Below are positions 35,901 through 59,539 of a stretch of 64,000 nucleotides of DNA, in pieces. The first letter of the stretch is position 1, and every line of letters starts with the position of its first letter. The position numbers and the translations under genes are program-made. The stretch spans positions 173,011 through 237,010 of the forward strand of contig JBAZFH010000002.1 in NCBI GenBank assembly GCA_041653535.1, written 5' to 3'. The notes beneath the pieces are model-generated. The model was given only the letters and a program-made list of their open reading frames with translations, was not told the DNA's origin and did no database searches. Source of the DNA: Patescibacteria group bacterium (GTDB taxonomy: Bacteria; Patescibacteriota; Patescibacteriia; JACRDY01).

Positions 35901-38342
35901 ATGAAAAGACTTTTCCAGTCCAAACATTTTTGGCCGGTTTTGATTGTTGTTTTGGCCGGTTTGGCGGTTTTTACTTGGTTTAAGGGCGATTTGATTTTTA
36001 GTTATGGCGACGTGAGGTTCAATTTTTCTCCTCTGGAAACTTTTAAAAACTATTTTTATACTTGGAGCAGAGAAGATACCGGCTCGCCGGTAATACAGGC
36101 GATGCCGTTTATTTTTTACCAAATTTGTTTGGCTATTTGGGCAAAGATCGGTCTGCCATTATTTTTATTCCAACGGTTGGCTTATTATTTTTTGTTTGTT
36201 TCCGGCGGTTTGGGGGTCTATGTTTTGTTAACTACTGTTTTTCGCGGCGAACGACGTTATTTAATAGGGCTGTTAGCAGCTCTTTTTTATATGTTTAATA
36301 TTTATGCTCTAGTTATGGTTTGGGGCATGGGTATCCAGATTATTTATTTTTATCCTTTTTTGCCATGGTTGCTAACCCTTTTTATTAGGGGGATAGAGGG
36401 TGGGAAGGTGATAATCTATTTGCTTCTTTTTTCTCTGCTCAATTTTTTAGTCGCTATTGCTTACAGTAACGCTTCTTATGTGGTTTTAGTCTGGTTGCCG
36501 ATTTTTGCTTATTTTATTTTTTATTTGTTTGTTAATCGTCGTGACCGGCAAAAGGTCAGGGTCGCTTGTATTTTTACAGCTTTATTGGTGGTCGTTTGGT
36601 TATTGCTAAACCTTTATTGGTTAGTACCTTTTGTCTATGATATTTCTTCTTTTTCTTCAGCCGCTTTGAAAAATGCAGCTTATTCTCACAGTTTGGGCGA
36701 GACGGTTCGGGGTGCGAGCGTGACGGCACATTTGTCTAATGCCGTCAGACTTTTTGGCTATCAGCCTTTTGATGATAATTTTTCTTATGCGCCAGGAGAT
36801 TATTTTCATTCGTATTCGCCGGTCTATAACGGCAAAATATTTTTTACTATACTTAGCTATACTATTCCGCTGCTAGCTTTGGGAAGTTTATTATTTTTAT
36901 TTAAAGAAGAGAAAAAAGAAAAAAGGCGTTTAGTGTTTTTTTTGTTGTTTTCAGTTGCCGCTTTATTTTTGTATAAGGGATCGCAACCTCCGTTTGGAGG
37001 CTTATATGTTTGGGCAGTAAACAAGTTTTCTTTGTTTGGTGCTTTTCGTCATCCGATGGGGAAATTCGGCACGTTTCTTGTCTTGGGTTATGCTGTCTTG
37101 ATCGGCTACACTCTCAGCGAAATTTATTTGTGGTTAAAGAAGAAAATAAATGCAACTAATGCCAAAACAGTTTTGGTTGTTATTTGTGTTTTATTGTTTG
37201 TTATTTATCAGTATCCATTTTGGCAAGGAGATGTTTTTCATGAAAAAGGACTAATTTCTCGGTCAGCTTTAGTGGGCGTTCCTGATTATTATCGAGAGGC
37301 GGCTGGCTGGCTGGCGACGCAGCCGGAAAATTTTAGAATTTATCCTGTGCCTGAGACGGGTTTTTTTGGTACCGCGTTGCGTTGGGATAACGGTTACGAT
37401 GGAGCTGATCCCGCCTATCCTCTTTTATTACGATCGGTAACGCATTTGATGAATGAAAACGGAATCGAAATAAAAATTTGGGACGAAATTTCAGCCGAGA
37501 CGGTTAACGAGCAAAACGCGGCATTATTGATGGGACTGCTAAATACTAAATATGCTATGGTGAGAAAAGACGTGGCGAAAGAATATTTTAATATGCCGAA
37601 AGTCACTTTTGATCTGGCCGTGAAGCATTTGGAAAAAGAAGAAATAGCCGGCTTAAAATTCGATCGGAATATTGGTCAGTTGGATTTTTATTTGTTGGAG
37701 GATAAATATTTTTATCCTCGTATCTACGTTCCGACATTTTGCGCTCTAAGCTCCGATTGGTTGCAAGCCTTGAAATTAGTCAACACTAGACTGGAAAAAG
37801 ACAAGATAGCGATTTTTACTTCTACGGATCCGGAGAAAACCTTTGGTCAGATCCGTAAAGATTCAGCCTTTGATTTTAGTGCTACGGCGGTTTTGGACGG
37901 CAAAAAAGAATCATTGGAAAATCTGACGTTGAAAACGGCACCAGACATAAAATTTGAAAGAATAAACCCGACAAAATATCGAGTCGAAGTTAGTAATGCC
38001 CAAGGTAACTTTCTTTTGGTACTGTCAGATAGTTTTAATAATGAATGGAAAGCCTATTTAATACCTGATACAAAGCGGGTTAATAGTTTTTTTGGTCAGA
38101 TTGCCGAAACGTGGAGTTTGCAGCCGATTGCCGATGATAAGCACTTTTGGGTTAATAAATACGCTAATGCTTGGTATGTGGAGCGACCGGAACAAAAAGA
38201 GGACTTTACCATTATTTTAGAATTTTGGCCGCAGCGCCTAGTTTATTGGAGCTTGACCGCAAGTGTCGTTGCCTGGTTGGTTTTTATTATAGTATTGATT
38301 ATTGTTAGCCGAAAAAAAAGAAAGTCAATTAAAGATATTTAG
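35901..38342 (+). CDS. Large polytopic membrane protein (putative GT-C-fold glycosyltransferase, YfhO/AftD-like), with a C-terminal EFWPQR-TM anchor.
   Basis: 813 aa. About 12 N-terminal TM helices, a large soluble domain and a terminal TM. Paralogous to the 54459-57677 protein: INPTKY..., NNEWKAYL / NFNTFWRVYV, YANAWYVERP / YANGWWIKRP, and ILEFWPQRLVYW / IIEFWPQRIYYL. Confidence 0.55.
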   Translation: MKRLFQSKHFWPVLIVVLAGLAVFTWFKGDLIFSYGDVRFNFSPLETFKNYFYTWSREDTGSPVIQAMPFIFYQICLAIWAKIGLPLFLFQRLAYYFLFVSGGLGVYVLLTTVFRGERRYLIGLLAALFYMFNIYALVMVWGMGIQIIYFYPFLPWLLTLFIRGIEGGKVIIYLLLFSLLNFLVAIAYSNASYVVLVWLPIFAYFIFYLFVNRRDRQKVRVACIFTALLVVVWLLLNLYWLVPFVYDISSFSSAALKNAAYSHSLGETVRGASVTAHLSNAVRLFGYQPFDDNFSYAPGDYFHSYSPVYNGKIFFTILSYTIPLLALGSLLFLFKEEKKEKRRLVFFLLFSVAALFLYKGSQPPFGGLYVWAVNKFSLFGAFRHPMGKFGTFLVLGYAVLIGYTLSEIYLWLKKKINATNAKTVLVVICVLLFVIYQYPFWQGDVFHEKGLISRSALVGVPDYYREAAGWLATQPENFRIYPVPETGFFGTALRWDNGYDGADPAYPLLLRSVTHLMNENGIEIKIWDEISAETVNEQNAALLMGLLNTKYAMVRKDVAKEYFNMPKVTFDLAVKHLEKEEIAGLKFDRNIGQLDFYLLEDKYFYPRIYVPTFCALSSDWLQALKLVNTRLEKDKIAIFTSTDPEKTFGQIRKDSAFDFSATAVLDGKKESLENLTLKTAPDIKFERINPTKYRVEVSNAQGNFLLVLSDSFNNEWKAYLIPDTKRVNSFFGQIAETWSLQPIADDKHFWVNKYANAWYVERPEQKEDFTIILEFWPQRLVYWSLTASVVAWLVFIIVLIIVSRKKRKSIKDI

Positions 38343-38409
38343 AAAATTGAGAAAAATTTGGCTATCTTTACAAGAAAAGTTAATGGGAGTAGACTGTAAA
38401 AACTAAAAT

Positions 38410-45129: not shown

Positions 45130-46617
45130 ATGAAGGTATTGCTTTCTAATCCTCCTTGCCGCGTTGATTCGGGTGACGGCAAAGAAAAGTTTTTTATCCG
45201 TGCTGGCTCTCGCTGGCCATTTTCTGTCACAAAGAAAAAAGAGGAGAAAGCGGACTATTTACCGTTTCCTTTTTATTTAGCCTATACCGCCGCTCTTTTA
45301 GAAAAAAAAGGTTTTGATATTGTGGTTAACGACGCGGTGACGCTAAACAAAACAGAGGAAGAGTTTCTACAAGAAATCGTGCGAGACAATCCTGATATAA
45401 TTTTATTCGAAACCTCAACGCCGACGATCAATCATGACTTAGTATTAGTTAATAAAATAAAAAAACTTTTACCTAAAATAAAAATTGCTCTTGCCGGACC
45501 TCATGTTTCAACTTTTTTTCAAGAAACCATGAAAAAATCTCCAGTTGTAGATTTTATTTTTATTCAAGAATACGAGCTGTCCTTCACTGAATTAGTCGAA
45601 CGGTTAGTACAAGGAAAGACTTTTGATGATATTACGGGGCTAGTTTGGCGTTCCGGTGAGCAGATAAAAAATAATCCACCAAAACTGATTGATCCGCTTG
45701 ATCAACTGCCGCCGCCGGCTCGTCGTTTTTTCCCTATTGATTTGTATTGGGACGGATTTTGCCAATATCGGCCGGCAGTACAGATGCATGCCACCAGAGG
45801 TTGTCCTTTTCGCTGTAATTTTTGTCTTTGGAACCAAGTAATGTACAACAATGCCAAATATCGTACATTTGGTGTTAAAAGAATCGTCGATGAAATGAAG
45901 GACTGCCAGAAAAAATACGGCGCCAAAGAAGTTTATTTTGACGACGATACTTTTACCGGCAATAAGCAATTTGTTTTAGATTTTTGTCGAGAGATAAAAA
46001 ATCGTGGTCTTAATATCCATTGGTCGTGTATGGGTGATGCCATGATCACCGACGAAGAAATGGTGGAAGCGATGGCGGATGCTGGTTGTGTTGGTATGAA
46101 ATTTGGCGTTGAGTCGGGAGATGCGGAGGTTTTAAAAAAAATTTGTAAGCCGGTGGTTCATGAAAAGATAAAAAAAGTAGCGCGACTACTAGCCAAAAAG
46201 CATATTAAGACTCATGCTACTTTTACTTTCGGTCTTTCAGGAGAAACTAAAGAGAGCATGAAAAAAACCATGGATTTTGCTAAAGAATTGGACGTTGATA
46301 GCGTGCAGTTTTCTATTAATACGCCTTTTCCGGGTACCAGGTATTACCAGGAATCTCAAGAAAAAGGTTTGTTACTAGCCAAAGATTGGTCGGACTACGA
46401 CGGGGCGACTTCTTCGATAGTTAAATTTGAAAATTTGACCAACGAGGAAGTAGAGTGGCGTTATTGCAGTGCTAGCGGTGAGTGGTTGCGTTATAAGCTA
46501 AAAAGCCCGCGTTGGGTGTTGCGACAGGTCTATAATTTTTTCCGTTTGCTGGTCGGACAAGGTACGGTTGGCGCCGGGCAAAAGTTAAAAAGGCTTTTTG
46601 AATTAATTAAATCTTAA
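45130..46617 (+). CDS. B12-binding-domain radical SAM enzyme (class B).
   Basis: N-terminal B12-like domain, then ATRGCPFRCNFCLW (C-x3-C-x2-C) and TFGLSGET / NTPFPGT blocks. The start abuts the upstream stop. Confidence 0.8.
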   Translation: MKVLLSNPPCRVDSGDGKEKFFIRAGSRWPFSVTKKKEEKADYLPFPFYLAYTAALLEKKGFDIVVNDAVTLNKTEEEFLQEIVRDNPDIILFETSTPTINHDLVLVNKIKKLLPKIKIALAGPHVSTFFQETMKKSPVVDFIFIQEYELSFTELVERLVQGKTFDDITGLVWRSGEQIKNNPPKLIDPLDQLPPPARRFFPIDLYWDGFCQYRPAVQMHATRGCPFRCNFCLWNQVMYNNAKYRTFGVKRIVDEMKDCQKKYGAKEVYFDDDTFTGNKQFVLDFCREIKNRGLNIHWSCMGDAMITDEEMVEAMADAGCVGMKFGVESGDAEVLKKICKPVVHEKIKKVARLLAKKHIKTHATFTFGLSGETKESMKKTMDFAKELDVDSVQFSINTPFPGTRYYQESQEKGLLLAKDWSDYDGATSSIVKFENLTNEEVEWRYCSASGEWLRYKLKSPRWVLRQVYNFFRLLVGQGTVGAGQKLKRLFELIKS

Positions 46618-48590: not shown

Positions 48591-49253
48591 ATGTCCAGAA
48601 TAGATGATTCCCGTCAGGGTTACGACGAACTTCATAAAGATCAAGGCTTTAGCGAGGAGCCGGAGTACTATGAAGTTGTCGGCGCGTTAGTCAAGGGTAA
48701 AAAAAGCGTAGATATTGGTTGTGGCTATGGTTTTATCGAAATGTATTCTCCAGAAACAGTGGCGGTTGATTTTTCCGAAGAAGCGTTAAAAGTAGCGCAG
48801 CAAAATGGCGCGCGGCAAACAGTGAAAGCGCCAGCCGAAGAACTGCCGTTTGCCAGCGATGAGTTTGAAGTAGCGACAAGTATTGGTGTTTTGGAACACT
48901 GCGCCGATCAAAAAAAAGCAATTCAAGAAATGGTTAGGGTTTCCAAAATTCAAATTTTAGCAGTTCATGCCAAGTTGCCTTATGGTTTAGAATTAGTACG
49001 CCGTCCGCTCATTAAATTTTTTGGTCTCAAAGATCAGCCAATCGAAGACCCTCTGACTATGAAACAGATTAAGCAGCTGCTCAAAGACGCCGGCTCGCGC
49101 GTTATCGTCGAAGGTTTTTGGAACTATATTGATCTGCGCTGGCTTTGGAAAAAAATTCCTTATAGTTTGGTGAAATGGCCGTCTCATCATTTTGTCATTG
49201 CTATTAAAACACCAAACCTCGAACGTAAATTTTTAGGAGAAAATGAAAGATAA
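48591..49253 (+). CDS. Class I SAM-dependent methyltransferase.
   Basis: SVDIGCGYGF motif I. GVLEHC. 220 aa. Confidence 0.7.
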   Translation: MSRIDDSRQGYDELHKDQGFSEEPEYYEVVGALVKGKKSVDIGCGYGFIEMYSPETVAVDFSEEALKVAQQNGARQTVKAPAEELPFASDEFEVATSIGVLEHCADQKKAIQEMVRVSKIQILAVHAKLPYGLELVRRPLIKFFGLKDQPIEDPLTMKQIKQLLKDAGSRVIVEGFWNYIDLRWLWKKIPYSLVKWPSHHFVIAIKTPNLERKFLGENER

Positions 49254-50376
49254 TATTGGAAAGATTATCAAAACTATTGTTAACAACCCGGGCAATATAC
49301 CCTGGCGCGGTTTTCAGTTCGCCCGAAGGATTTTTCCGCTAGATTATTATTTTGCCTCCGGTCACGCTTTTCCCCCAGACATTATTACCATACTGATCAC
49401 TAGGCGTTGTAATTTTAGTTGTCCGGGTTGTTCTTCTGCTTCACCGCTGTACACCAAAGATTGCGCGGACAAAAAAGAAATGAGCTTGGAGGAAATAAAG
49501 AAACTAATTGACCAAGTCGCTTGGTTTAAACCAGCGATATATTTTAACGGTGGCGAGCCAACACTCCGTCCTGATCTGATCGAGGCGATAAAATATGCCA
49601 AAAGCAAAGGGTTGATAACGGCGCTGACCACCAACGGCAGTTTGATGGACGAAGATTTGACGGCAAAAATAGTTTCCAGCGGGCTTGATTTTTATTCTAC
49701 CTCTATCGACGGTCCAGCAGAGTATCACAATGCTCGTCGCGGTTTTACTTTTGCTTATGAAAACGCTACCAGGGGAATTATCAATCTTTTGCTTGCTAGA
49801 AAAAAGGCAGGCGTTGCCACACCGCATATTCGCATTTCTTGTATCACTAACAGTGAGAAGGTGGATTATAACTGGCACGTTTTGCACTTAGCGAACGACC
49901 TTGGCACTGACGAAGTGGCTTTTGGTAATCTAATGTTTTATTCACCAGAAGTTGAAAAAAAACAAAATGATTTTATTGCCGCGCATGGCACTGGCGGACA
50001 AGAAGTGATTGGTTTAGCCGTTAATGACGGCAAGATAGCGGTTGATGCCCCGGCATTAAAAGAGTTTTATCGCACCGCGAAGCAAAAATCCAAAATACCG
50101 GTTTACCTGGTGTTAAACGAGGGAGACGTTGATAGTTTCTATTCCTGGCGGTATCCGGCTAAAAGCCGTTGTCTTACTCCTTGGCTGGTGGCAGTGGTTT
50201 TACCAAACGGCGATGTGACGGTTTGCCAAAATTTAATACTAGGAAATATTTTGCAAGACAAATTTACAAAAATCTGGAATAACAAAAAGTTTAAATATTT
50301 TCGTTTAGCCAGAAAGAAATACCAGATGCCGGCTTGTTTTCGTTGTATCGAAGGTCAGGAAATAAAATTTGATTAA
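49243..50376 (+). CDS. Radical SAM enzyme with a C-terminal SPASM domain.
   Basis: TRRCNFSCPGC (C-x3-C-x2-C). C-terminal C...C...CFRC cysteines. Overlaps the upstream MT by 11 nt. Confidence 0.8.
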   Translation: MKDNIGKIIKTIVNNPGNIPWRGFQFARRIFPLDYYFASGHAFPPDIITILITRRCNFSCPGCSSASPLYTKDCADKKEMSLEEIKKLIDQVAWFKPAIYFNGGEPTLRPDLIEAIKYAKSKGLITALTTNGSLMDEDLTAKIVSSGLDFYSTSIDGPAEYHNARRGFTFAYENATRGIINLLLARKKAGVATPHIRISCITNSEKVDYNWHVLHLANDLGTDEVAFGNLMFYSPEVEKKQNDFIAAHGTGGQEVIGLAVNDGKIAVDAPALKEFYRTAKQKSKIPVYLVLNEGDVDSFYSWRYPAKSRCLTPWLVAVVLPNGDVTVCQNLILGNILQDKFTKIWNNKKFKYFRLARKKYQMPACFRCIEGQEIKFD

Positions 50377-50377
50377 T

Positions 50378-51574
50378 ATGCGGATATGTTTTTTTAATCT
50401 TAATCGGCTTGATTACGAAGGTGGCGCCGAAAAGTATTTTGTCGAGACGGCTGCCGCGCTAAAAAGGGATGGTCAGGATGTTTTTTTTGTTTGTGATAAT
50501 TACTTTTACGTTCGGATTCGGCCAAAAATAGAAAATTTTATTTTTCGTCTGATCGGAGCGCCACTGCATCAAAATGGGATTACTTCCCGCCAGCTGGAAG
50601 AAGATCTGAAAATATTTGATAGCTACAAAATGCCGCTATTATTTCAGTTGCCGTTTTCCGCCGCACGCAGGAAAATCAAAAAATTATTAGCCCAAGCCGA
50701 CGTAATTTATTGCAAAAACGAGTTTATTGATTCTTGGTATTTGAAACGTTTAATCGGCAAAAAGGGATTTGCCAAAGTAGTGCTTGGATTACACACTGCT
50801 ATTTTTTTAGCCAATGCAGAATCTTTTCATTCGCGAGTTCATAATTTTTTGTATTTTTCGCGCGTTTACCAAAAAGTTTTGCAGCTTTGCGGCGCCGTTC
50901 ATGTGATCAACAATTCCTATAAAGATAAATTGGTCGAAAGTTTCAAGCTTGATCCGGGAAAAATTGTCTTTGTGCCAAACGGAATAAAAGAAAACGATTT
51001 GGAAAGGACGACTGCCGGCGAAAGTGACGCTTTTAAGATTTTATTCGCCGGACGCTTTACCGAACAAAAAGGCATTGATTATTTGTCGGAAATCATTGAT
51101 AATCTATCTAAAGATCCAATCTTTTCGCGAATAGAAATATTGATTGCCGGAGCGGGTCAGCGCCAGGATATTGTAGATAAATTGATAAATAAATTTAGTA
51201 ACGTCAAATATCTTGGTTTTGTCAAGGAAATGTCGAATCTTTATCGACAAGTTGATATTTGCATCGTGCCGTCACGTTGGGAAATGTTTCCGTATAATTG
51301 TCTGGAGCCGCAAGCGAAAAGTTTGCCAGTAGTGGCTTTCGACATTCCCGGAACTAAAGATATTGTTGTTAATGGCACGACCGGGTTACTTACTCCGCTT
51401 GGCGAGGCGAATTCCTTTAGCGGGGCAATAAAAAAAATGTTTGATCTAAAGGCTAATAACCGCGTCGAGTGGCAAGTGATGAAAGATGCGGCTTACAAAA
51501 ATGTTTCGGAAAGATTTACTCTGACAGCTGTGGCAAAAGAACTGGAAAAACTTTTTGAAAAAGTAAAAAAATAA
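50378..51574 (+). CDS. GT4 glycosyltransferase.
   Basis: GT-B layout. EMFPYNCLEPQAKSLPVVAFDIPG motif. ATG 50378 is preferred over the TTG 50369 of the ORF track. Confidence 0.75.
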   Translation: MRICFFNLNRLDYEGGAEKYFVETAAALKRDGQDVFFVCDNYFYVRIRPKIENFIFRLIGAPLHQNGITSRQLEEDLKIFDSYKMPLLFQLPFSAARRKIKKLLAQADVIYCKNEFIDSWYLKRLIGKKGFAKVVLGLHTAIFLANAESFHSRVHNFLYFSRVYQKVLQLCGAVHVINNSYKDKLVESFKLDPGKIVFVPNGIKENDLERTTAGESDAFKILFAGRFTEQKGIDYLSEIIDNLSKDPIFSRIEILIAGAGQRQDIVDKLINKFSNVKYLGFVKEMSNLYRQVDICIVPSRWEMFPYNCLEPQAKSLPVVAFDIPGTKDIVVNGTTGLLTPLGEANSFSGAIKKMFDLKANNRVEWQVMKDAAYKNVSERFTLTAVAKELEKLFEKVKK

Positions 51575-51575
51575 T

Positions 51576-52127
51576 ATGGTAGAGCTGCAAAAAATAAACT
51601 TTGGTTGCGGGCACAAACATTTGTCCGGTTTTATTAATGTTGATAATAACCCCAACGTCAAAGAAGCTGATGTTGTTCATGACTTAAATATCTTTCCTTA
51701 TCCTTTTGCTGATTCTTCGGTTAACGAAGTAATCATGGACCATGTTTTGGAACACTTGGACGATCCGATTCGGGTGATTGAAGAGCTATATCGAATCAGT
51801 GCTGACGGGGCGATGCTTTATATCAAGACGCCGCATTTTTCTTGCAACTGGCTGCACCCGGGGCACAAAAATGGGATTAGCACGATGCTTTTCAGCTATT
51901 TTGTTCATGACGGAGATGATTACTACGGAGATTGTTACTTTGAAGTAAAGAAAATCAAGTTAAGCTGGTTGCGTCCAGCAAACAAACATTCGGTTGCGCT
52001 CAATACGCTTTCCCGGATAATTAATTTTTTCGCCAACCTCAATATTGGTTTCTGTCAGCGAGTTTGGTGTTACTGGGTGGGGGGATTTGAAGAGTTAGAA
52101 TTTGAAACCAAAGTAATAAAAAAATAA
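51576..52127 (+). CDS. Class I SAM-dependent methyltransferase (small).
   Basis: INFGCGHKHLSGFINVD motif I, DHVLEHL. 183 aa. Confidence 0.65.
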   Translation: MVELQKINFGCGHKHLSGFINVDNNPNVKEADVVHDLNIFPYPFADSSVNEVIMDHVLEHLDDPIRVIEELYRISADGAMLYIKTPHFSCNWLHPGHKNGISTMLFSYFVHDGDDYYGDCYFEVKKIKLSWLRPANKHSVALNTLSRIINFFANLNIGFCQRVWCYWVGGFEELEFETKVIKK

Positions 52128-52128
52128 A

Positions 52129-53346
52129 ATGACAGAGTTTTTTTTCTCGGAAATAGAAAAATATAAATATCCGGATTTTCTGATTGATATTATCCAGGAT
52201 TCTTTGAATATTTTTCTTGGTAATATCGGTGAAGACAATCTTGCCGCCGTTGTCCTTCATGGTAGCACCGCGAAGGGTAAAATTACTATTATTGGTGATC
52301 AGCTCTACAGCGATGTGGAGTTTTTTGTCTTTGTTCGCCGTAGCGTTAGCGGCGCGGCAGCAGAAAAAATAAGAAACGATTTGGTGGCGATAAAAGAAAA
52401 GTACCATCAAAAAAACCGTTTTTTTCATGTCGACTTTATTATTAAGAAAAAGTGTTTAATGCGGTTTTATCAGAGAAACCTTTTGATCTATGAGCTGAAA
52501 AACGCCGGTAAGGTTTTGTACGGTGATCTGAATATTCTTTCTAATATCCCGAAGATCGATGAAAAAAACATTAATCTGAGAGCCGTCAACGATATTATGC
52601 TTATGCGCTTGAGGGTTTTCTTGAAAGATTTTAGTTTTAATCCTGGTGACAAAGAGGATTATTATGCGTTACTAAAAAATGTTTATCAGTATTTAATGGC
52701 GGTGGTTGTTTTTAATAAAGGGATTTTGTTACCTAGCGGTTATGACAGGTATAAATATGTCGAAGCGCACCACGAGGACTATTTATTTTTGGGGGACAGA
52801 TTTTTTTCCAATTATTATTTTTCCAGTCGGATGAAATTTCCGATGCACTTTGCGGAAAACGAGAGAAACGTGTCTTTTGATAAGGGGTATTTTGATTACG
52901 CCAAAGAAGTGGTGGGCGGCATGTTTTTAGTTCTGAGACTTTTACTTCAAAAAAACAATCTGTCCCAGTCAGAGATAAATGAGGAGAACGTTTTTTCTGT
53001 TTTAGACAGATCAGCCGATATTTTTAATGACAGCTGGTTCGATGTTTATAGTCTGGCTTGTCGGGTGCGCTATCTCAAGCAAGTTGTTTTATCGGGTAAG
53101 ATTTTTTCTCTATTTAAAGCTTTTAGACCGATAAAAAAGAAATTGGTTTTGGCGTATCTGGCGCTTTGTTTTGCTCTCAAAAAACAACTAAATGGCGAAT
53201 CACCAGATTTGTATTTGCAGTTGGCGGCAAAATATACCAAGCAACTCAGTTACGAAAATACAAAGTTTTCTCTGACAGGGGACTTTAAAAAAGATTTTTA
53301 TTTCCTTAAAGCGGAGCTGCTCACTATTTATCGAATTGTTTTTTAA
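52129..53346 (+). CDS. Nucleotidyltransferase-fold (pol-beta-like) domain protein, function unknown.
   Basis: VLHGSTAKGK...SDVEFFVFV resembles the minimal NTase motif hG[GS]...D.[DE]. The rest is an uncharacterised helical region. 405 aa. Confidence 0.45.
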   Translation: MTEFFFSEIEKYKYPDFLIDIIQDSLNIFLGNIGEDNLAAVVLHGSTAKGKITIIGDQLYSDVEFFVFVRRSVSGAAAEKIRNDLVAIKEKYHQKNRFFHVDFIIKKKCLMRFYQRNLLIYELKNAGKVLYGDLNILSNIPKIDEKNINLRAVNDIMLMRLRVFLKDFSFNPGDKEDYYALLKNVYQYLMAVVVFNKGILLPSGYDRYKYVEAHHEDYLFLGDRFFSNYYFSSRMKFPMHFAENERNVSFDKGYFDYAKEVVGGMFLVLRLLLQKNNLSQSEINEENVFSVLDRSADIFNDSWFDVYSLACRVRYLKQVVLSGKIFSLFKAFRPIKKKLVLAYLALCFALKKQLNGESPDLYLQLAAKYTKQLSYENTKFSLTGDFKKDFYFLKAELLTIYRIVF

Positions 53347-53347
53347 T

Positions 53348-54454
53348 ATGGCTAATCTGGTTATCTTCATCGACGGTTTTCCTTACGATCAGCTGGCGCA
53401 GACCGATTTTTTGAATAATCTCAAAAAAAGTCGTCGTATTCCCGGTATCGGCTATAGTTTTAATCTTTATTTGGAGATGTTTGCTGGACTAGTGCCAGAT
53501 CAAAGCGGTGTGTTTTGTGAGTTTGCTTTTGAGCCGCAACGGTTGCAAAATAAAACCGTTCGTATTTTAATGCCGGTTTTGAAAATTATTGATAAACTCG
53601 GTATCTTTTCTTCTCTTTTTAAACGTTTTGTCACAGGGTATTGTGGTTTTAAGTTTCACAACGTGCCGTTTGCCTACCGATATTTTTTCACCGACGCGGG
53701 AAAACAAATCCAACGTCCTGATCTGCGGGAAAAAACTATTTTTAAGAAAATAGAAAAGTTAAGTAATGGTAAAATTTTTGATCATAGCATTTGCTGCTAT
53801 ACCGACAAAGAAAGCGTGGGTCTTTTTTATCAAAATATTGACGCCGATAATCTTTTTATTCATTTCACCGAGCTGGATGGAGCCGGTCACGCCGGATTTT
53901 TGAGCGCCGAATATTTTGCTAAGCTAAAATGGCTTGATGATAAGCTGAAAAATATCTGGCAAAAATATCAAGAGCGGCATCCGGGAGCAAATCTTATTAT
54001 TTTGTCAGATCATGGTTTTTGCTCGGTTGAGAAATTTATCCGACCGGAGTTTGAAAGAATCGGCAGCTTAAAAGCCGGTAGAGATTATTTTTATTTTGTT
54101 GATACGACTATGGTTAAGTTTTGGTTTTTATCACAAGCGGCAAAAGAAGCGGTTTTGAAATATTTAAGCGGTTTGGATTTTGGCAGGGTTTTAAGTGAAC
54201 AAGAACGTTTGGCTTCAGGAATAGCAGACAAAAAGTTTGCTGACGAGATTTTTTTACTTCAGCCCGGCATTGCCTTTTTCCCTTCTTTTTACGGTGGAAT
54301 CATTAAGGTTAAAGGAGTACACGGTTACGGTCCGGAGTGTAGCGGACATCACGGAATATTTTTGTATAATACGCCAAGGCGGGTTGAAATTGCGCCTATC
54401 ATCAATAACAAAGAAACATATCAGTGCATTTTAGATATTTTAGATTTAAAATAA
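53348..54454 (+). CDS. Alkaline-phosphatase-superfamily enzyme (type I phosphodiesterase / nucleotide pyrophosphatase-like).
   Basis: LVIFIDGFPYD, HFTELDGAGH and ILSDHGF, the metal-ligand motifs of the NPP/phosphodiesterase family. ATG 53348 is 2 nt after the previous stop. Confidence 0.65.
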   Translation: MANLVIFIDGFPYDQLAQTDFLNNLKKSRRIPGIGYSFNLYLEMFAGLVPDQSGVFCEFAFEPQRLQNKTVRILMPVLKIIDKLGIFSSLFKRFVTGYCGFKFHNVPFAYRYFFTDAGKQIQRPDLREKTIFKKIEKLSNGKIFDHSICCYTDKESVGLFYQNIDADNLFIHFTELDGAGHAGFLSAEYFAKLKWLDDKLKNIWQKYQERHPGANLIILSDHGFCSVEKFIRPEFERIGSLKAGRDYFYFVDTTMVKFWFLSQAAKEAVLKYLSGLDFGRVLSEQERLASGIADKKFADEIFLLQPGIAFFPSFYGGIIKVKGVHGYGPECSGHHGIFLYNTPRRVEIAPIINNKETYQCILDILDLK

Positions 54455-54458: not shown

Positions 54459-57400
54459 ATGATTGTCTTGGAAAAAATAAAAAAGTATTGGCCGATTTTA
54501 TTTATTTTAGTTTTGGGTTCTTTGCCCTTGGTTTGGTTTAGAGATGGTCTGCTTATCGCCGGCGGCGACAATGATTGGTATCTTAACCCGGTAAAGCTTT
54601 TTCACGATGCCCTTTACACCTGGTCAGGGCTAAAAAGCGCTGGAGAAATAAATTTTTTGGTTTGTCATATTTTTCCATTGCCTGCTTTTTGGGCTTTATT
54701 AAAACTGGTCGGTTTGAGTTTGGTTAATATCCAGAGGCTATGGACTATTTTGATTTTCGTTACCCCGGCTCTATCGATTTATTATTTGGTTATCAGATAT
54801 TTTGGCGCAGACAAAAAGGAGGTTAAATATCAGCTCGTCGGACTGCTAGCCGCTATCCTCTATAGCTTCAATATGTTTTTGATTAATAGTCCGCTCAACT
54901 CCGTTGCTTCTCCGGTGCTGGCAATCATGCCGCTGATGCTTTGGTTCTTTATTTCGGCTTTGGAGCAAGAAAAATTTTCTTTCAAATATCCGGCGGCTAT
55001 TAGCGTGTTATCTATTTTCCTCTTTTTTTCGAACACCAATCTGGCGGAAGTTAGTATTATACCACTGGTCCTCGGTCTTTATTTGTTATTTTTTGTTGCT
55101 TTCAACTTTAAATTTTTTAAAATAGTTCATGCTTTCAAAGTAGTCGTGGCTAGTGTAGTCGCATATCTGGCGGTTAACTCCTGGTGGTTGCTGATAATAT
55201 CTTTTTCTTTTGTTGAAGCTGCTTCCAAAGCAGGAGAAATTGTAAAAAGTATCAGTTTTGTCGAACGTAGTTATTTGTTTGAAGTATTTAGATTGATGGG
55301 TTTTTGGGCTTTTAGGATCAAAACCGGCGCGGGGCTTTCAAACGTGCCGTACAGTGATTTGTATTATCAACCTTTACTTATAATCTTGACCTACCTAATT
55401 CCACTAGTGGTATTTTTCGCTTTAATTTTTCGACCGCGGGACAAGAAGATTATTTTTTTCTCCCTGATTTTTTTGCTGGGAATATTTTTAGCCAAGGGGA
55501 CCAATGAACCGTTTGGTGTCGTCTATGGTTTTTTGTTTGAAAAGATCCCTGGATTTTGGGTTTTTCGCAACCCTTACTCCAAATTTATGCCTTTGACGAT
55601 ATTTGGTTTTTCGATTTTGTATGGTTTATCTGCCGCCGATATATATTATGGAGCAAAAAAGTGGTTTGTAACCAAGATAAAAAACCGGCAAAGGGCGGTA
55701 GCGATGGCTTTGATTATCCTTGTGTTTTTGGGGTTACTGCCAATTGCGGCTGCCTGGCCAATACTGACCGGTAAATTTTTGTCCGATGCTTCCTGGTATG
55801 GTACACCTGAAAAATCAATGCATGTCCAAGTGCCGGACTACTGGCAGCAAGCAAACAAATGGTTTACAGAAAACGACCCTGAAGGTAGAGTTTTGCTTTT
55901 ACCCAAAGCAGGATATGGGCATTGTTATAAATGGTTGTCGGGAATATGCACCGGAGGATATGTTGCCAACTATCTTATACCAAATCCGATTATCAGCTAT
56001 CCCAATCTAAAAATAGATTCTCCGTACGATAACACGATTGATAGTCTTTTTTCTTACATTAAACCGCAGACCAGGGTTGATCTTGCCGAATTACTGGGTG
56101 TTTTTAATATTAAATATATCTTGCAGCAAGACGATTTACTGTGGCAAAGGGCGGGCACCGATTCTTATTCGCCGGAACAGATAAAAAATATTTTAGCGGA
56201 GCAGCCGGGGATAGAGTTTATAAAAAATTTTGGCAAGTTGAATCTTTATCAGATTAAAGGTGATTATTACGTGCAGAGAATTTTTGCCCCACGTAAAGTT
56301 AGTTATACGTCTAGCAAAGATCCCCTGGAGACAAGTCAGGCGGTTTTACTCAACAAAAAAAACGTGACGGAAGAGTCGATGTTCGAAATAAAAGATGGTT
56401 TGGATAGTTCAGACAAGGATTTGATAGCAACAAAAAGACTAGCCGATACTAACGGTTATAGTCTAGATATACCAGCGCAGGCAGAATATGATTTTTATTT
56501 GATTCAAAAACCAATCTCGCCGCAAGTTGTGGTCTGTGCCGGATGCCCGTCGGGTTTTGGTATTAGTCTTGGCGATGAATATTCGGGGAAACAATTATTT
56601 TTTACTAAAGCAATAAGTGGTGGAGTTTACTTTGATAATGACAAAAAGATTTCTTTGTCCTGGCGTCGGTCGATAAAGATTTATCCTTTAGACGTTAATG
56701 ATGTGGGTATTGATAGTCCGATAGTCGGTTGGAGTTTTATCCAAAATGTTGGGGCGGTAGATCTTTACGGGTCGCAGCTGTCGGAAAATTTTCCCGAAGA
56801 CTACAAAACGTCATCAGAAGCAAAAATATTTTTTGCCGGTTTCCGGGATGGACAGCAACTGGGCGAAGACTGGGGGGTCGAAATTTTTCCCGATTCTTTT
56901 GAAATAGGGACTATGAAGACCAGAAGGGTGGTGGTTAGTGTGCCAGCGGGAACTAGACCCGGGGAGGGCTATCGATTCGTTTATCTCAAAAAACCAAGCA
57001 TGCTTTCCGATTTAGATTTTGGGAGCAATGTCGGCACAAGCAGTGTTTTATCTGTCGGTTCTGCAAGTCTCGCTGCCGGCAATCATCGTGTTTTATTGAC
57101 CGGACTGACCAGCGAGGATTTGGATAAAATGACTTTTGTTGCCAAGAAAAAGGTGGTGGAAGGCGGAGTGGTGGTGCCAAAAATAACATTCAAAAAAATC
57201 AACCCGACAAAGTATAAAGTGATGGTTAGTGGAGCTGTAACCGATTTTTCTTTGGTTTTTTCTGAAAACTTTAATACTTTTTGGAGGGTTTATGTCTTTC
57301 CTCAAGTATTTTTAAGCCAAAGGGAACTTTCGGGCAAGCCTTTTTCGCCAGTGTCATCAAGCGGTCCGGTAGACGCTGATTTTGTAAGCGAGGAATATGG

Positions 57401-57677
57401 CGGATCCACGCAGAATAATAATCTTACGTCGCCTTTTTACAAGACATATTTTAGGTCTTCGCTTGGCGAGCACCAGCATTTTTTGGCCAATGGTTATGCT
57501 AATGGTTGGTGGATTAAGCGACCGGACTGCCTTGAACAAGGAGATAAGTGTCAGAATTTCGAAATCATTATTGAATTTTGGCCACAAAGGATTTATTATC
57601 TCGGTGGCTTGATTTCCGGTCTGTCATTTTGTTTGATATTGTTTTATTTGATCAAAAAAATACGGTCGAGGGAATAA
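54459..57677 (+). CDS. Very large polytopic membrane protein (putative GT-C-fold glycosyltransferase), paralogue of 35901-38342.
   Basis: 1072 aa. About 13 N-terminal TM helices, an extracytoplasmic domain of about 600 aa and a terminal EFWPQR-TM anchor. The conserved blocks are listed for the paralogue. Confidence 0.55.
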   Translation: MIVLEKIKKYWPILFILVLGSLPLVWFRDGLLIAGGDNDWYLNPVKLFHDALYTWSGLKSAGEINFLVCHIFPLPAFWALLKLVGLSLVNIQRLWTILIFVTPALSIYYLVIRYFGADKKEVKYQLVGLLAAILYSFNMFLINSPLNSVASPVLAIMPLMLWFFISALEQEKFSFKYPAAISVLSIFLFFSNTNLAEVSIIPLVLGLYLLFFVAFNFKFFKIVHAFKVVVASVVAYLAVNSWWLLIISFSFVEAASKAGEIVKSISFVERSYLFEVFRLMGFWAFRIKTGAGLSNVPYSDLYYQPLLIILTYLIPLVVFFALIFRPRDKKIIFFSLIFLLGIFLAKGTNEPFGVVYGFLFEKIPGFWVFRNPYSKFMPLTIFGFSILYGLSAADIYYGAKKWFVTKIKNRQRAVAMALIILVFLGLLPIAAAWPILTGKFLSDASWYGTPEKSMHVQVPDYWQQANKWFTENDPEGRVLLLPKAGYGHCYKWLSGICTGGYVANYLIPNPIISYPNLKIDSPYDNTIDSLFSYIKPQTRVDLAELLGVFNIKYILQQDDLLWQRAGTDSYSPEQIKNILAEQPGIEFIKNFGKLNLYQIKGDYYVQRIFAPRKVSYTSSKDPLETSQAVLLNKKNVTEESMFEIKDGLDSSDKDLIATKRLADTNGYSLDIPAQAEYDFYLIQKPISPQVVVCAGCPSGFGISLGDEYSGKQLFFTKAISGGVYFDNDKKISLSWRRSIKIYPLDVNDVGIDSPIVGWSFIQNVGAVDLYGSQLSENFPEDYKTSSEAKIFFAGFRDGQQLGEDWGVEIFPDSFEIGTMKTRRVVVSVPAGTRPGEGYRFVYLKKPSMLSDLDFGSNVGTSSVLSVGSASLAAGNHRVLLTGLTSEDLDKMTFVAKKKVVEGGVVVPKITFKKINPTKYKVMVSGAVTDFSLVFSENFNTFWRVYVFPQVFLSQRELSGKPFSPVSSSGPVDADFVSEEYGGSTQNNNLTSPFYKTYFRSSLGEHQHFLANGYANGWWIKRPDCLEQGDKCQNFEIIIEFWPQRIYYLGGLISGLSFCLILFYLIKKIRSRE

Positions 57678-57682
57678 AAATT

Positions 57683-59539
57683 ATGAAAAATAAAATTATT
57701 AAAATCATAAAAGCCATGTTTAGTTGGTGGTCGGCGGGAGAGCGGATAATATTTTTAGAGTACGCCGCACTGTCTATTTTTATATTATTGCCGATATTTA
57801 AACCCGGATATATTTTTGCTCTGGACTTTACCGCCGCTCCGCATTTTGATTTTCCATCCACAGTTTCTTTCGAGTACCCGTGGTTAGTTTTTTTGTGGTT
57901 ATTAAATCTGTTTATTCCGGCGGCAGTGATACAAAAGATAATTTGCTTCGCCATTCTGTTTTTAGCCGGCATCGGTGCACATTATTTTGTCGGAAAGTTT
58001 TCGTCGACTAAATGGTCAAAATATTTTGCCGGTTTGTTGTTTATCTTTAATCCGTTAGTTTATTCTCGTTTAGCTTATGGTCAGTTTCGTTTTTTGTTAG
58101 GGTACGCTCTATTGCCGTGGTTATTTTTAGCTGGCTTGCGGTTTTTGAAACAACCATTGATTAAAAAGACGTTTTATTTAGCGCTACTCCTAACGGTTTG
58201 CGGAGCAGTCAGTCTCCATATTTTGTTTATATTTTCTTTTGTTTTTATCGCGACGTGGCTGACTCGTTTTTTTCAATCAATTTATAACAGAAATTATTTG
58301 TTTGAATTTTTAAAACAAACCGTTTTTTTATTGCTATTATTTTTGTTTTTAAATAGTTATTGGTTATTACCGGTTTTTGTCAACCATTCTAGCGTCAACA
58401 ATGCTCTGTCATCTTTTGACCAGCGGGACGTCTTTGGTTTTCAGACCAATGCCGACTCTCGCTTTGGGGTTTTTGTTAACACAGCAGCGATGTATGGTTT
58501 TTGGGGTGACAGAGAGGGTCGTTATTTTTCTCAAAAAACAGTAGTCTCTTATTGGTTTGTTTTGTTTCTAGTGTTATTATTTTTTGTTTTTTGGGGCGTT
58601 GGTTTGTTGTTTTGGAAATTAATCAAGAAATATCATCAGTTCAGATTATTGACAAACCCGTCTGTTGCTCAGCTAAAAGATGAACGATTATCGGAAGATA
58701 TTTGGCTTGCCCTCCCAATATTTTTTTGTGCCGTTGTCGCTTTGTTTATGGCTGTCGGCGTGGCGCATCCATTTTCTGCGCTGATTTCTCAGTGGTTATA
58801 CCAAAACTTTTCTTTTTATAAAGGTTTTAGGGAGCCGCAAAAATGGGTAGTGGTCTTGATTTTAGCTTATACCTATTTTGCTTCATTTGGTGTTGATGAT
58901 TTGGTAAAGAAAGCCGCCCGCGGTCTTGAGTATTTGGCCAGGAGAGCCAATCAACTAAAAACAAAGAAACCGATTTTATTTTTATTGTCAGTTTTTAGAA
59001 AAGTTTTGCCCGTGATATTTCTGATCGTTCCTTTGTTCTACAGTCCGATATTATTGCTAGGGCTTGGTCGCCAGATGTGCGTTGGTTCTTATCCGGCCAG
59101 TTGGTACGAGTCTAACGAGCTGTTAAATTCTGATCAGGAAAATTTTCAGACGCTTTTTCTGCCATGGCACATGTATCTCAATCTGTCTTTTGCTTGTAAC
59201 AAGGTAGTAACAAATCCTGCCGCTGCCTTTTTTGATAAACCATTTATAGTCGGAGACAATATTGAATTTGGAAATATTTATAACCAAAATAATCGGGCTG
59301 ATTCAAAATATGTCGAAGAAAACATATTGCAAAACAAAGGGCGGTTTACTCAAAAAGACGGCGGGGGTTTAGGAGAAGTGTTGAATACGATAAACGTTAA
59401 GTATGTTGTTTGGGCAAAAGAGTCGGATTTTTTTAATTATGATTTTGTTAAATTGGCGCCGGACTTAGAATTGGTTTATGATAGAGACAGGATTCAAATT
59501 TATAAAAATTTAAAATGGCAAGATGAAAAAAATAGATAA
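57683..59539 (+). CDS. Large polytopic membrane protein related to the N-terminal TM region of the two giant paralogues.
   Basis: 618 aa from ATG 57683; the ORF-track 57578 start is an extension overlapping the upstream gene. Multiple TM helices with the FALDFTAAPHFDFP loop motif. Lacks the EFWPQR C-terminal anchor. Confidence 0.5.
   Translation: MKNKIIKIIKAMFSWWSAGERIIFLEYAALSIFILLPIFKPGYIFALDFTAAPHFDFPSTVSFEYPWLVFLWLLNLFIPAAVIQKIICFAILFLAGIGAHYFVGKFSSTKWSKYFAGLLFIFNPLVYSRLAYGQFRFLLGYALLPWLFLAGLRFLKQPLIKKTFYLALLLTVCGAVSLHILFIFSFVFIATWLTRFFQSIYNRNYLFEFLKQTVFLLLLFLFLNSYWLLPVFVNHSSVNNALSSFDQRDVFGFQTNADSRFGVFVNTAAMYGFWGDREGRYFSQKTVVSYWFVLFLVLLFFVFWGVGLLFWKLIKKYHQFRLLTNPSVAQLKDERLSEDIWLALPIFFCAVVALFMAVGVAHPFSALISQWLYQNFSFYKGFREPQKWVVVLILAYTYFASFGVDDLVKKAARGLEYLARRANQLKTKKPILFLLSVFRKVLPVIFLIVPLFYSPILLLGLGRQMCVGSYPASWYESNELLNSDQENFQTLFLPWHMYLNLSFACNKVVTNPAAAFFDKPFIVGDNIEFGNIYNQNNRADSKYVEENILQNKGRFTQKDGGGLGEVLNTINVKYVVWAKESDFFNYDFVKLAPDLELVYDRDRIQIYKNLKWQDEKNR

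What the first reader, a model, noticed from the sequence alone, without database searches (positions are those of the whole stretch)
35901..59539. Three huge paralogous polytopic membrane proteins with a conserved C-terminal EFWPQR-TM anchor
Two of these genes encode an 813-aa and a 1072-aa protein with the same architecture. About 12-13 TM helices start at K(K/H)FWP(V/I)L...W(F). A large extracytoplasmic domain follows, with conserved blocks: KFERINPTKYRVEV / TFKKINPTKYKVMV; NNEWKAYL / NFNTFWRVYV; YANAWYVERP / YANGWWIKRP. A final (I)LEFWPQR(L/I)(V/Y)YW motif leads into a single C-terminal TM. A third, 618-aa protein shares the N-terminal TM module. The layout resembles GT-C glycosyltransferases that use polyprenol-P-sugars on the outer face of the membrane (YfhO, AftD, ArnT type). 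The array also encodes a CsbB/GtrB-like polyprenol-P GT2. Together these could be the donor-forming and transfer halves of an extracytoplasmic glycosylation step. Three paralogues would mean three distinct additions.
Basis: partly seen in the sequence, partly recalled or inferred. Interest (0 to 1): 0.6.

Follow-up and report, generated by a model that had tools for sequence, protein, structure and literature searches.

The report
AftD-like membrane glycosyltransferases in a Patescibacteria glycan cluster
The three large membrane proteins are real and are lipid-sugar-dependent (GT-C fold) glycosyltransferases related to mycobacterial AftD and MmpA; two are already named that way in GenBank, but two of them plus an unnamed small membrane protein form a gene trio that recurs in many uncultured microbes.

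Summary
A (35901-38342, 813 aa) and B (54459-57677, 1072 aa) are clear paralogues (BLASTP E=4e-43). They pass the Pfam GT-C_AftD threshold, and GenBank already names them AftD-family proteins in a Patescibacteria MAG.

C (57683-59539, 618 aa) is related only at profile level (hhalign E=8e-51). It belongs to a separate MmpA-like branch, lacks the C-terminal anchor, and is "hypothetical" in GenBank.

The "EFWPQR + TM" tail is not special to this window. It is the consensus of a beta-sandwich-plus-anchor module found in over 10,000 protein clusters, mostly on AftD-like proteins, and no Pfam model covers it.

A full-length GtrB-type polyprenyl-phosphate sugar synthase (22462-23421) is present.

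New here: B, C and a small unannotated membrane protein S (59523-60350) are a recurrent, often translationally coupled trio. S lies next to the C-type gene in 32 of 45 testable loci.

Donor sugar and acceptor are unknown, and arabinose is unsupported. The proteins are ordinary family members. The gene trio is a modest novelty.

The parts
35901..38342 (+). Gene A, 813 aa. AftD-family GT-C: TM core about aa 9-443, outside domain 444-680, conserved beta-sandwich module, single re-entry TM 779-807, K/R-rich inside tail.
   Evidence: PF11847 42.1 bits; identical GenBank protein named AftD family.
37938..38342 (+). C-terminal module of A (aa 680-813): INPTKY...W...H..N.YAN.W...EFWPQR, then the TM anchor.
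   Evidence: A recovered by the module profile at 1.1e-30.
36009..36011 (+). Codon for D37 of A, the conserved acid (GGD/GE motif) in the first outside loop.
54459..57677 (+). Gene B, 1072 aa. AftD-family GT-C: 11 TM helices (aa 9-431), outside alpha/beta domain to about 620, poorly modelled beta-rich insert 640-890, conserved module 905-1040, TM12 1042-1069.
   Evidence: (90.6 bits).
54567..54575 (+). Codons for D37-N38-D39 of B, a DxD motif in the first outside loop. D39 aligns with the essential AftD D41.
   Evidence: AftD mutagenesis from bioRxiv 10.1101/2019.12.22.885152.
55566..55583 (+). Codons for R370...K375 of B (motif FRNPYSKF). K375 aligns with the essential AftD K361. The equivalents are A R383/K388 and C R383/K387 (both invariant in the C family).
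57171..57677 (+). C-terminal module of B (aa 905-1072) with EFWPQR and the TM anchor.
   Evidence: (strands 908-947 and 1007-1040, helix 1042-1069).
57683..59539 (+). Gene C, 618 aa. MmpA-like short GT-C: 11 TM helices plus a 155-aa outside domain, no C-terminal anchor. It starts 5 nt after the stop of B.
   Evidence: pLDDT 93; GenBank: hypothetical protein.
57824..57826 (+). Codon for D48 of C, a near-invariant acid in the first outside loop. It has the same L-D-x4-P spacing as AftD D41.
59523..60350 (+). Gene S, 275 aa, about 8 TM helices. It overlaps the end of C by 17 nt. The conserved core is about aa 165-262 (3 TM helices, motif SR...AL..L...P.LL...AE..A.YAYYFL.IG). It is a recurrent neighbour of AftD-like and MmpA-like GT-C genes.
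22462..23421 (+). GtrB/PgfS/ArnC-type polyprenyl-phosphate glycosyltransferase (GT2 with C-terminal TM helices). Candidate maker of the lipid-linked donor.
   Evidence: 5EKP E=1e-67; ArnC 1e-31.
25896..27191 (+). Wzx-type (Polysacc_synt) 12-TM flippase of the same cluster.
32769..35871 (+). SPASM radical-SAM, MetW-like methyltransferase and B12 radical-SAM genes directly upstream of A. The same gene order precedes an AftD-like gene in L002.
45130..54454 (+). Upstream of B: B12-rSAM, GT4, two methyltransferases, SPASM-rSAM, GT4, a methyltransferase-like gene, an unknown 405-aa protein and an alkaline-phosphatase-superfamily protein. The B12-rSAM/GT4/SPASM/GT4 genes are syntenic with L001 (36-58% identity).
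60498..61487 (+). Secreted or anchored FN3 protein with GYGYGY repeats and a Gly/Ser/Thr-rich stretch. Weak candidate acceptor. A homologue occupies the same position after the C-type gene in L033.

Best explanation
The stretch from about 22.4 to 60.4 kb is a one-strand surface-glycan biosynthesis cluster of a Patescibacteria (CPR) genome.

**What the proteins are.**
- A and B are AftD-family GT-C glycosyltransferases. Each has an 11-helix membrane core with a catalytic pocket on the outer face, an outside alpha/beta domain and a conserved C-terminal beta-sandwich. One helix then re-enters the membrane. This layout corresponds in position to AftD's structural beta-sandwich plus TM12.
- C is a shorter MmpA-like relative with the same core and no anchor.

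**How they most likely work (inferred).**
- All three most likely take a sugar from a polyprenyl-phosphate carrier outside the membrane and add it to a surface glycan, or possibly a surface protein, made by the same cluster.
- The GtrB-type GT2 at 22462 can make such a donor.

**Gene organisation.** B, C and the small membrane protein S are a conserved, translationally coupled unit. They probably act together, either in consecutive steps or as a complex. A is an extra, more divergent paralogue placed after a radical-SAM/methyltransferase block.

**Shown versus inferred.**
- Shown: family, fold, topology, conserved polar residues and gene linkage.
- Inferred: enzymatic activity, donor, acceptor and any physical complex.
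For: **Family and fold.**
- Pfam PF11847 is above threshold for A and B.
- phmmer of B against AftD 6w98 gives E=1.3e-7. The A/B family profile gives E=3.6e-21.
- The AF2 model of B has pLDDT about 90 over aa 1-620 and in the C-terminal module. The model of C has pLDDT 93.
- Foldseek puts AftD first for B (6e-20) and for C (8e-8, TM 0.58). STT3, AglB, AftA, PglB, DPY19 and ArnT follow.
- A/B and C families are homologous: hhalign E=8e-51.

**Residues.**
- Each protein has an acid in the first outside loop.
- The FR.P..K motif is conserved. Its K aligns with AftD K361, which mutagenesis showed to be essential.
- A keeps D503, which aligns with AftD E475.

**Donor.** The GT2 at 22462 is a full-length GtrB homologue.

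**Context.** The cluster holds GT2 and GT4 enzymes, Wzx, sugar-nucleotide enzymes and methyltransferases.

**Module.**
- S is adjacent to the C-type gene in 32 of 45 loci with enough flank.
- A protein with the A/B C-terminal module lies upstream in 26 of 44 such loci.
- S lies immediately downstream of 11 of 39 AftD-like genes in loci that lack a C-type gene.
- A single-pass phmmer search already finds 22 S homologues.
- The family occurs in Saccharibacteria, WWE3, Shapirobacteria, Collierbacteria, Omnitrophota, Auribacterota, Humimicrobiia and Bathyarchaeia.
Against: - No member of these non-actinobacterial branches has been tested, and none turned up in the literature searched.
- Of five AftD residues shown essential (K39, D41, E251, K361, D474), only D41 and K361 have clear equivalents in B.
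- B and its closest relatives have Gly-Gly where AftD has D474/E475. A has Arg at the D41-aligned position, with D37 two residues earlier. The loop alignments are uncertain.
- The GtrB gene is distant and is seldom linked to these genes in other loci (3 of 30).
- No priming phosphoglycosyltransferase, Wzy polymerase or ligase was found in the window. The pathway is therefore incomplete as seen here.
- S has no recognisable family.
- The middle of B (aa 640-890) is poorly modelled.
Confidence: 0.72

Rival explanations
1. They are true arabinofuranosyltransferases, as the GenBank name says. They would use decaprenyl-phosphoarabinose-like donors to build arabinan, as mycobacterial AftD does.
For: PF11847 hits and AftD as best structural match. 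The NCBI name.
Against: - Structure-based identity to AftD is only 12-14%.
- No Pfam hit to AftD's carbohydrate-binding modules, and there is one C-terminal TM helix instead of AftD's five.
- No DPA-pathway genes (UbiA-type PRPP transferase, DprE1/E2) are in the window. The only lipid-sugar synthase is GtrB-like, a hexose or HexNAc type.
- The name is a family label, not a tested activity.
Confidence: 0.05
2. C, and perhaps all three, is not an enzyme. It would be a lipid-delivery or scaffold protein, as MmpA is named (trehalose lipid delivery protein).
For: - C and all 42 sampled relatives match NCBIfam NF053599 MmpA over the full length.
- The MmpA paper describes it as lacking recognisable catalytic domains (PMC8698533).
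Against: - The score of 113.7 is below the model cut-off of 210.
- Patescibacteria are not known to make mycolates (general knowledge).
- The C family keeps near-invariant outside-facing polar residues (D48, R383, K387, H496, E528), as expected for an active GT-C.
- A 2026 preprint itself reports that Foldseek places MmpA among glycosyltransferases.
Confidence: 0.1
3. The acceptors are proteins rather than polysaccharide. This would be a GtrB-plus-GT-C O-glycosylation system like streptococcal PgfS/PgfM1 or GtrB/PgtC2, decorating Ser/Thr-rich surface proteins such as the FN3 protein at 60498.
For: - The best NCBIfam match of the GT2 is PgfS (219 bits).
- An FN3 protein with a Gly/Ser/Thr-rich stretch follows the module, and a homologue does so in L033.
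- There is precedent in PMC12041528.
Against: - The PgfS score is below its cut-off of 500, and the match to GtrB sll0501 is equally good.
- The streptococcal GT-Cs are YfhO-type, and no PF09586 hit was found here.
- FN3 homologues occur in only 3 of 83 C-type loci.
- The cluster looks like polysaccharide synthesis, with Wzx and many GT4/GT2 enzymes.
- No WWDxG motif is present.
Confidence: 0.15
4. A and/or B transfer or polymerise whole lipid-diphosphate-linked units (en bloc transfer, polymerase or ligase role). They would fill the place of the Wzy/ligase that is missing from the cluster, rather than adding single sugars.
For: - Wzx is present, but no Wzy, O-antigen ligase or LCP family was detected among ORFs of the window.
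- The next-best fold matches are the en bloc transferases STT3, AglB and PglB.
Against: - The closest relative, AftD, uses a monophosphate-linked single sugar.
- There is no WWDxG motif.
- Missing genes may simply lie outside the 64-kb window.
Confidence: 0.15

Closest known systems
Mycobacterial AftD (Pfam PF11847 GT-C_AftD / DUF3367; PDB 6W98)
   Same: - 11-helix GT-C core plus an outside alpha/beta domain of about 600 residues. It is the best sequence and fold match.
- An acid in the first outside loop, and the K361-equivalent lysine.
- The chain re-enters the membrane through one helix after a beta-sandwich. The A/B module aligns weakly, and not significantly, to AftD 1207-1280.
   Different: - 12-14% identity.
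- No Pfam hit to AftD's carbohydrate-binding modules, and no TM13-16 acyl-carrier-protein-binding bundle.
- B lacks the D474/E475 acids.
- Host is a CPR bacterium without arabinogalactan. Donor and acceptor are unknown.
MmpA (Rv0226c / NCgl2761; NCBIfam NF053599)
   Same: - C and all 42 sampled relatives match the model end to end.
- Same short layout: 11 TM helices plus one outside domain.
- mmpA lies in the same conserved locus as aftD in Mycobacteriales, as C lies next to B here.
   Different: - The score is below the equivalog cut-off.
- MmpA is linked to trehalose mycolate handling, which these organisms lack.
- The MmpA paper stated there are no homologues outside Corynebacterineae. This family contradicts that statement.
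Three-component extracytoplasmic glycosylation (GtrB synthase, GtrA flippase, GT-C transferase; also CsbB/GtcA/YfhO, PgfS/PgfM1)
   Same: A full-length GtrB-type synthase and GT-C transferases are in one cluster. The logic of making the donor inside and transferring it outside is the same.
   Different: - No GtrA-family flippase was detected. S is not GtrA by Pfam.
- The synthase is far from the GT-C genes and is rarely linked elsewhere.
- The transferases are AftD/MmpA-type, not GtrC or YfhO.
Heteromeric GT-C pairs (EmbA-EmbB, Pmt1-Pmt2)
   Same: Two homologous GT-C proteins are encoded side by side and conserved as a pair.
   Different: No evidence of physical interaction here. The two partners differ greatly in length and architecture, and a third small membrane protein accompanies them.

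Membership tests
Pfam PF11847 GT-C_AftD (DUF3367) | HMM score above the gathering threshold (26 bits) | tested here: met
   A 42.1 and B 90.6 bits. C scores 22.8 bits, just below, so C is not a member by this criterion.
Pfam PF11847 GT-C_AftD (DUF3367) | GT-C fold with an 11-helix core and AftD as nearest structure | tested here: met
AftD orthologues (arabinofuranosyltransferase D) | Residues shown essential in AftD (K39, D41, E251, K361, D474) | tested here: inconclusive
   - The K361 equivalent is conserved in A, B and C.
- D41 aligns with B D39 and C D48, but with A R39 (A has D37 nearby).
- E251 and K39 are not conserved.
- At D474/E475, A has Ala-Asp and B has Gly-Gly.
- Loop alignments are uncertain.
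AftD orthologues (arabinofuranosyltransferase D) | Three carbohydrate-binding modules and a C-terminal TM13-16 bundle that binds acyl carrier protein | tested here: not met
   No CBM_AftD or F5/8 Pfam hits in A, B or C. There is a single C-terminal helix in A (hydropathy) and B (model), and none in C.
AftD orthologues (arabinofuranosyltransferase D) | Decaprenyl-phosphoarabinose donor and arabinan acceptor | not testable with these tools
   No DPA-pathway families among annotated ORFs of the window. Activity needs biochemistry.
MmpA (NCBIfam NF053599, equivalog) | Score above the curated cut-off (210 bits) | tested here: not met
   C scores 113.7 bits (E=9e-33, full-length alignment). All 42 relatives match with best E=1e-56. 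C is related but not an equivalog.
YfhO (Pfam PF09586) | HMM match | tested here: not met
   No hit at E<=1 for A, B or C. A distant homologue, P0035, carries a precomputed PF09586 tag that a rescan did not reproduce.
STT3/PglB/AglB oligosaccharyltransferases | WWDxG motif in the outside domain | tested here: not met
   No WWD motif in A, B or C. The fold similarity is generic to GT-C.
GtrB-type polyprenyl-phosphate glycosyltransferase (for the GT2 at 22462) | Full-length similarity to GtrB, including the C-terminal membrane helices | tested here: met
   5EKP sll0501 E=1e-67 over aa 6-312; ArnC 1e-31. Hydrophobic segments at aa 229-305. PgfS and ArnC models match full length but below their equivalog cut-offs.
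Three-component Gtr-like system | GtrA-family flippase encoded with the synthase and the GT-C | tested here: not met
   No PF04138 hit among the window ORFs scanned. S and 9 homologues give no GtrA hit at E<=1. A DUF6580 membrane protein precedes the GtrB gene, and its role is unknown.

The most novel reading that the evidence does not exclude
The long AftD-like protein, the short MmpA-like protein and the small S protein would be an ancient three-part membrane glycosylation machine shared by many uncultured bacterial and archaeal lineages. The mycobacterial aftD-mmpA locus would be a derived version of it. That would make MmpA a glycosyltransferase or an obligate GT-C partner rather than a lipid-delivery protein. 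It would also define S as a new accessory subunit, either for donor delivery or for complex assembly.
Probability: 0.3. Interest if true: 0.65.

Novelty: new variant of a known kind. Interest (0 to 1): 0.42.

Why it matters
Taken one at a time, the proteins are routine. They are AftD-family GT-C enzymes in a glycan cluster, and two are already named so in GenBank.

Three things add value.

1. **MmpA has relatives far outside Corynebacterineae.** The short C-type protein shows this, contrary to the published statement. These relatives keep conserved outside-facing polar residues and sit next to AftD-like genes. This gives a testable lead on the disputed function of an essential mycobacterial protein.
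2. **A recurrent AftD-like / MmpA-like / small-membrane-protein gene trio.** It defines a unit for study in organisms whose cell surfaces are almost unknown.
3. **The C-terminal beta-sandwich-plus-anchor module.** It is very common (over 10,000 clusters) yet has no Pfam model, so it could be added to domain databases.

Tried and rejected
- **Pfam on the isolated C-terminal regions of A and B at E<=10.** Nothing meaningful.
- **C-terminal module profile against PDB sequences.** No hit. The only link to AftD 1207-1280 is a non-significant sub-alignment.
- **C-family profile against PDB sequences.** No hit at 0.1. Only fold search links C to AftD.
- **Genome-collection scans.** B alone found no relatives. 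A tighter alignment worked.
- **AFDB50 fold search.** It was meant to compare YfhO and AftD neighbours, but the library was unavailable.
- **Is S a GtrA-type flippase?** No Pfam support in 10 homologues.
- **Is S the split-off equivalent of AftD TM13-16?** No AftD hit with the S profile at E<=10.
- **jackhmmer drift for S.** Checked in two ways. The single-pass phmmer search already finds 22 homologues. In addition, the hits fall almost only next to GT-C genes.
- **Literature searches.** Searches for GT-C in Patescibacteria, for DUF3367 and for radical-SAM links found nothing relevant.
- **Promoter and terminator scan of 52-62 kb.** Counts were no higher than in shuffled sequence.

Full report
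**Observation**

The three ORFs are present on the + strand.
- A is at 35901-38342 (813 aa).
- B is at 54459-57677 (1072 aa).
- C is at 57683-59539 (618 aa from its ATG). The ORF list also shows an upstream TTG at 57578.

The quoted sequence blocks are there, with two small slips. B begins KKYWPIL and ends EFWPQRIYYL.

A and B are clear paralogues. They share 26% identity over about 650 residues (E=4e-43) and 30% over the last 165 residues (E=4e-19).

C is not a close paralogue. BLASTP gives E=0.001 against A and 0.41 against B. Alignments of each family's relatives are unambiguously homologous over about 630 columns (hhalign probability 100%, E=8e-51). "Three paralogues" is therefore two paralogues plus a distant cousin.

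**Identity**

- Pfam assigns A (42.1 bits) and B (90.6 bits) to PF11847, the N-terminal GT-C domain of arabinofuranosyltransferase AftD (threshold 26). C scores 22.8, just under.
- NCBIfam gives nothing for A and B. It matches C end to end to NF053599, the MmpA family, at 113.7 bits against a cut-off of 210. All 42 sampled relatives of C hit the same model.
- B matches the solved AftD chain 6W98 by sequence (E=1.3e-7). A 32-sequence profile of the A/B family matches it at E=3.6e-21.
- A and B are identical to GenBank proteins named "alpha-(1->3)-arabinofuranosyltransferase family protein" from a Patescibacteria MAG, on a 323-kb contig. C and the next gene are "hypothetical protein".

**Structure**

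The AlphaFold model of B is confident over residues 1-620 and in the C-terminal module. It is poor in a beta-rich insert at 640-890. The model of C has pLDDT 93.

- Foldseek ranks AftD first for both: B 6e-20, and C 8e-8 with TM 0.58. STT3, AglB, AftA, PglB, DPY19 and ArnT follow.
- The helix pattern fits AftD's 11-helix core, with the large domain outside after TM11. In B one further helix returns the chain to a K/R-rich inside tail. Hydropathy and the alignment to B indicate the same layout for A. C stops after its outside domain.
- None of the three has the WWDxG motif of oligosaccharyltransferases.

**Catalytic residues**

Mutagenesis showed that AftD needs K39, D41, E251, K361 and D474.

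- The lysine of the conserved FR.P..K motif aligns with K361. It is B K375 and A K388 (conserved K or R in 28 of 32 A/B-family sequences), and C K387 (invariant in its family).
- In the first outside loop, the A/B family keeps an acid in a GGD/GE motif (D37 in both). B has a literal DxD (D37-N-D39), and its D39 aligns with D41. A has Arg at that aligned position.
- The near-invariant D48 of C has the same L-D-x4-P spacing as AftD D41.
- E251 has no conserved counterpart.
- At D474/E475, A has Ala-Asp. B and its closest relatives have no acid.

These loop alignments are uncertain. The pattern is compatible with active enzymes, but not with strict AftD orthology.

**The C-terminal "EFWPQR-TM anchor"**

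- All 30-odd homologues of B end in the same module: INPTKY...W...H..NGYANGW...F.PQ...G..IS, followed by a helix.
- No Pfam model covers it. It has no sequence match in the PDB.
- A profile of the module finds 10,046 cluster representatives at E<=1e-3 and 5,510 at 1e-10 among 1.84 billion. The match is almost always at the extreme C-terminus of proteins of 700-1200 residues.
- Of 49 full-length carriers, 35 hit PF11847, and their consensus spells EFWPQ.
- One locus has the module fused to a GT2 domain instead (L032).
- AftD itself has a structural beta-sandwich followed by a single re-entry helix, TM12. The module aligns there weakly and not significantly. The positional equivalence is a reasonable inference, not a demonstrated homology.

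**Context**

Genes from 22.4 to 60.4 kb all lie on one strand. They encode:
- GT2 and GT4 transferases and a Wzx flippase;
- sugar-nucleotide modifying enzymes;
- many SAM methyltransferases;
- three B12-type and two SPASM radical-SAM enzymes;
- a deacetylase and an alkaline-phosphatase-superfamily protein.

Flanking genes are housekeeping.

The GT2 at 22462-23421 is a full-length homologue of GtrB (5EKP, E=1e-67) and ArnC (1e-31), with C-terminal membrane helices.

No priming phosphoglycosyltransferase, Wzy, ligase or GtrA family was found in the window.

**Related loci and the main new result**

Relatives of B occur in Saccharibacteria, WWE3, Shapirobacteria, Collierbacteria, Omnitrophota, Auribacterota, Humimicrobiia and Bathyarchaeia. 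Across 30 such loci (513 kb):
- 12 carry two AftD-like genes;
- 11 carry B12 radical-SAM genes (20 genes in all);
- 6 carry SPASM enzymes;
- only 3 carry a GtrB-like gene.

Blocks of the window are syntenic with two of these loci.

The gene after C, here called S (59523-60350), encodes 275 aa with about 8 TM helices. It has no Pfam or NCBIfam family and overlaps C by 17 nt. It has homologues beside C-type genes elsewhere.

I examined 83 loci that carry a C-type gene.
- 50 have an S homologue, and 44 of these lie within 300 bp of the C-type gene.
- 38 have a protein with the A/B C-terminal module, and 21 of these are directly adjacent.
- About 33 have all three genes. The order is often AB-C-S with overlapping stops and starts, as in the window.

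Restricting to loci with enough flanking sequence:
- S is adjacent in 32 of 45;
- an A/B-type gene lies upstream in 26 of 44.

In the loci chosen for AftD-like genes, which lack C, the S profile hits 16 ORFs (17 rows, one a duplicate locus). By inspection, 13 of these begin at or just past the end of an AftD-like gene. The stricter automated count gives 11 of 39 testable AftD-like genes.

A single-pass phmmer search already finds 22 S homologues. The conserved core is about 95 residues with three helices and the motif AE..A.YAYYFL.IG. S is therefore a real, unannotated family tied to these GT-C genes.

It is not GtrA by Pfam. Its profile does not hit AftD's C-terminal bundle.

**Parallel with Mycobacteriales**

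MmpA was reported to share homology with the first 668 residues of AftD and to have no homologues outside Corynebacterineae. The C family contradicts the second point.

aftD and mmpA lie in one conserved locus and share phenotypic profiles. A 2026 preprint notes that Foldseek places MmpA among glycosyltransferases.

The side-by-side B and C genes in a distant phylum suggest that the long/short pairing is old. I could not test whether an S-like gene exists in the mycobacterial locus.

**Mechanism and verdict**

Most likely all three are outer-face glycosyltransferases that use polyprenyl-phosphate sugars and act on the glycan made by this cluster. B, C and S would work as a unit, and A would be an additional divergent paralogue.

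- The GT-C identity is close to certain.
- Catalytic activity is probable.
- Donor, acceptor and any complex are inferred.
- The "arabinofuranosyltransferase" label is a family name without support here.
It should be corrected on three points: the family is AftD/MmpA rather than YfhO; C is not a close paralogue; and the three proteins probably do not act independently.

As single proteins they are new members of a known family. The conserved trio, the unmodelled C-terminal module and the non-actinobacterial MmpA relatives make it a modest new variant.

Noticed in passing
window 15010-18474 (+): The leucyl-tRNA synthetase ORF is one continuous 1154-aa frame carrying two extra in-frame domains. 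An IS200-like Y1 transposase domain lies at aa 263-368, and a serine-hydrolase / alpha-beta-hydrolase domain at aa 538-723. This is unusual for LeuRS.
   Followed up: no
window 59523-60350 (+); L002 13660-13998, L043 5224-5556 and many others: A small polytopic membrane protein family with no Pfam or NCBIfam model. Its conserved core has 3 helices and the motif AE..A.YAYYFL.IG. It sits immediately beside AftD-like or MmpA-like GT-C genes in dozens of loci. One homologue (L087) is fused to a LytR_C domain.
   Followed up: yes
window 24428-25885, 32769-35871, 45130-46617, 49243-50376; L001, L002, L005, L006, L008 and others: B12-binding and SPASM radical-SAM enzymes recur next to AftD-like GT-C genes: 20 B12-type genes in 513 kb across 30 loci from several phyla. 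Their role in a glycan pathway is unexplained, and no genome-wide control was run.
   Followed up: partly
window 60498-61487 (+); L033 10134-11429: A secreted or anchored FN3 protein with GYGYGY repeats and a Gly-run plus Ser/Thr-rich stretch follows the GT-C module. It has its own promoter-like site and a strong terminator-like hairpin at 61507-61535. A homologue sits in the same place in L033, followed there too by ComEC and a metallo-beta-lactamase gene.
   Followed up: partly
L032 2388-4376: A 662-aa protein combines a cytoplasmic GT2 domain, membrane segments and the A/B-type C-terminal beta-sandwich-plus-anchor module. The module is therefore not restricted to GT-C proteins.
   Followed up: no
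window 21897-22445 (+): A DUF6580 membrane protein (182 aa, 4-5 helices) lies 17 nt upstream of the GtrB-type gene. Whether it is a flippase partner is unknown, and it was not found near GtrB-like genes in the other loci.
   Followed up: partly
window 52129-53346 and 53336-54454 (+): A soluble 405-aa protein with no family hit and a 372-aa alkaline-phosphatase-superfamily protein lie directly upstream of B. No homologues were detected in the three C-type loci compared (L032-L034) or in the A/B-type loci L001-L031.
   Followed up: partly
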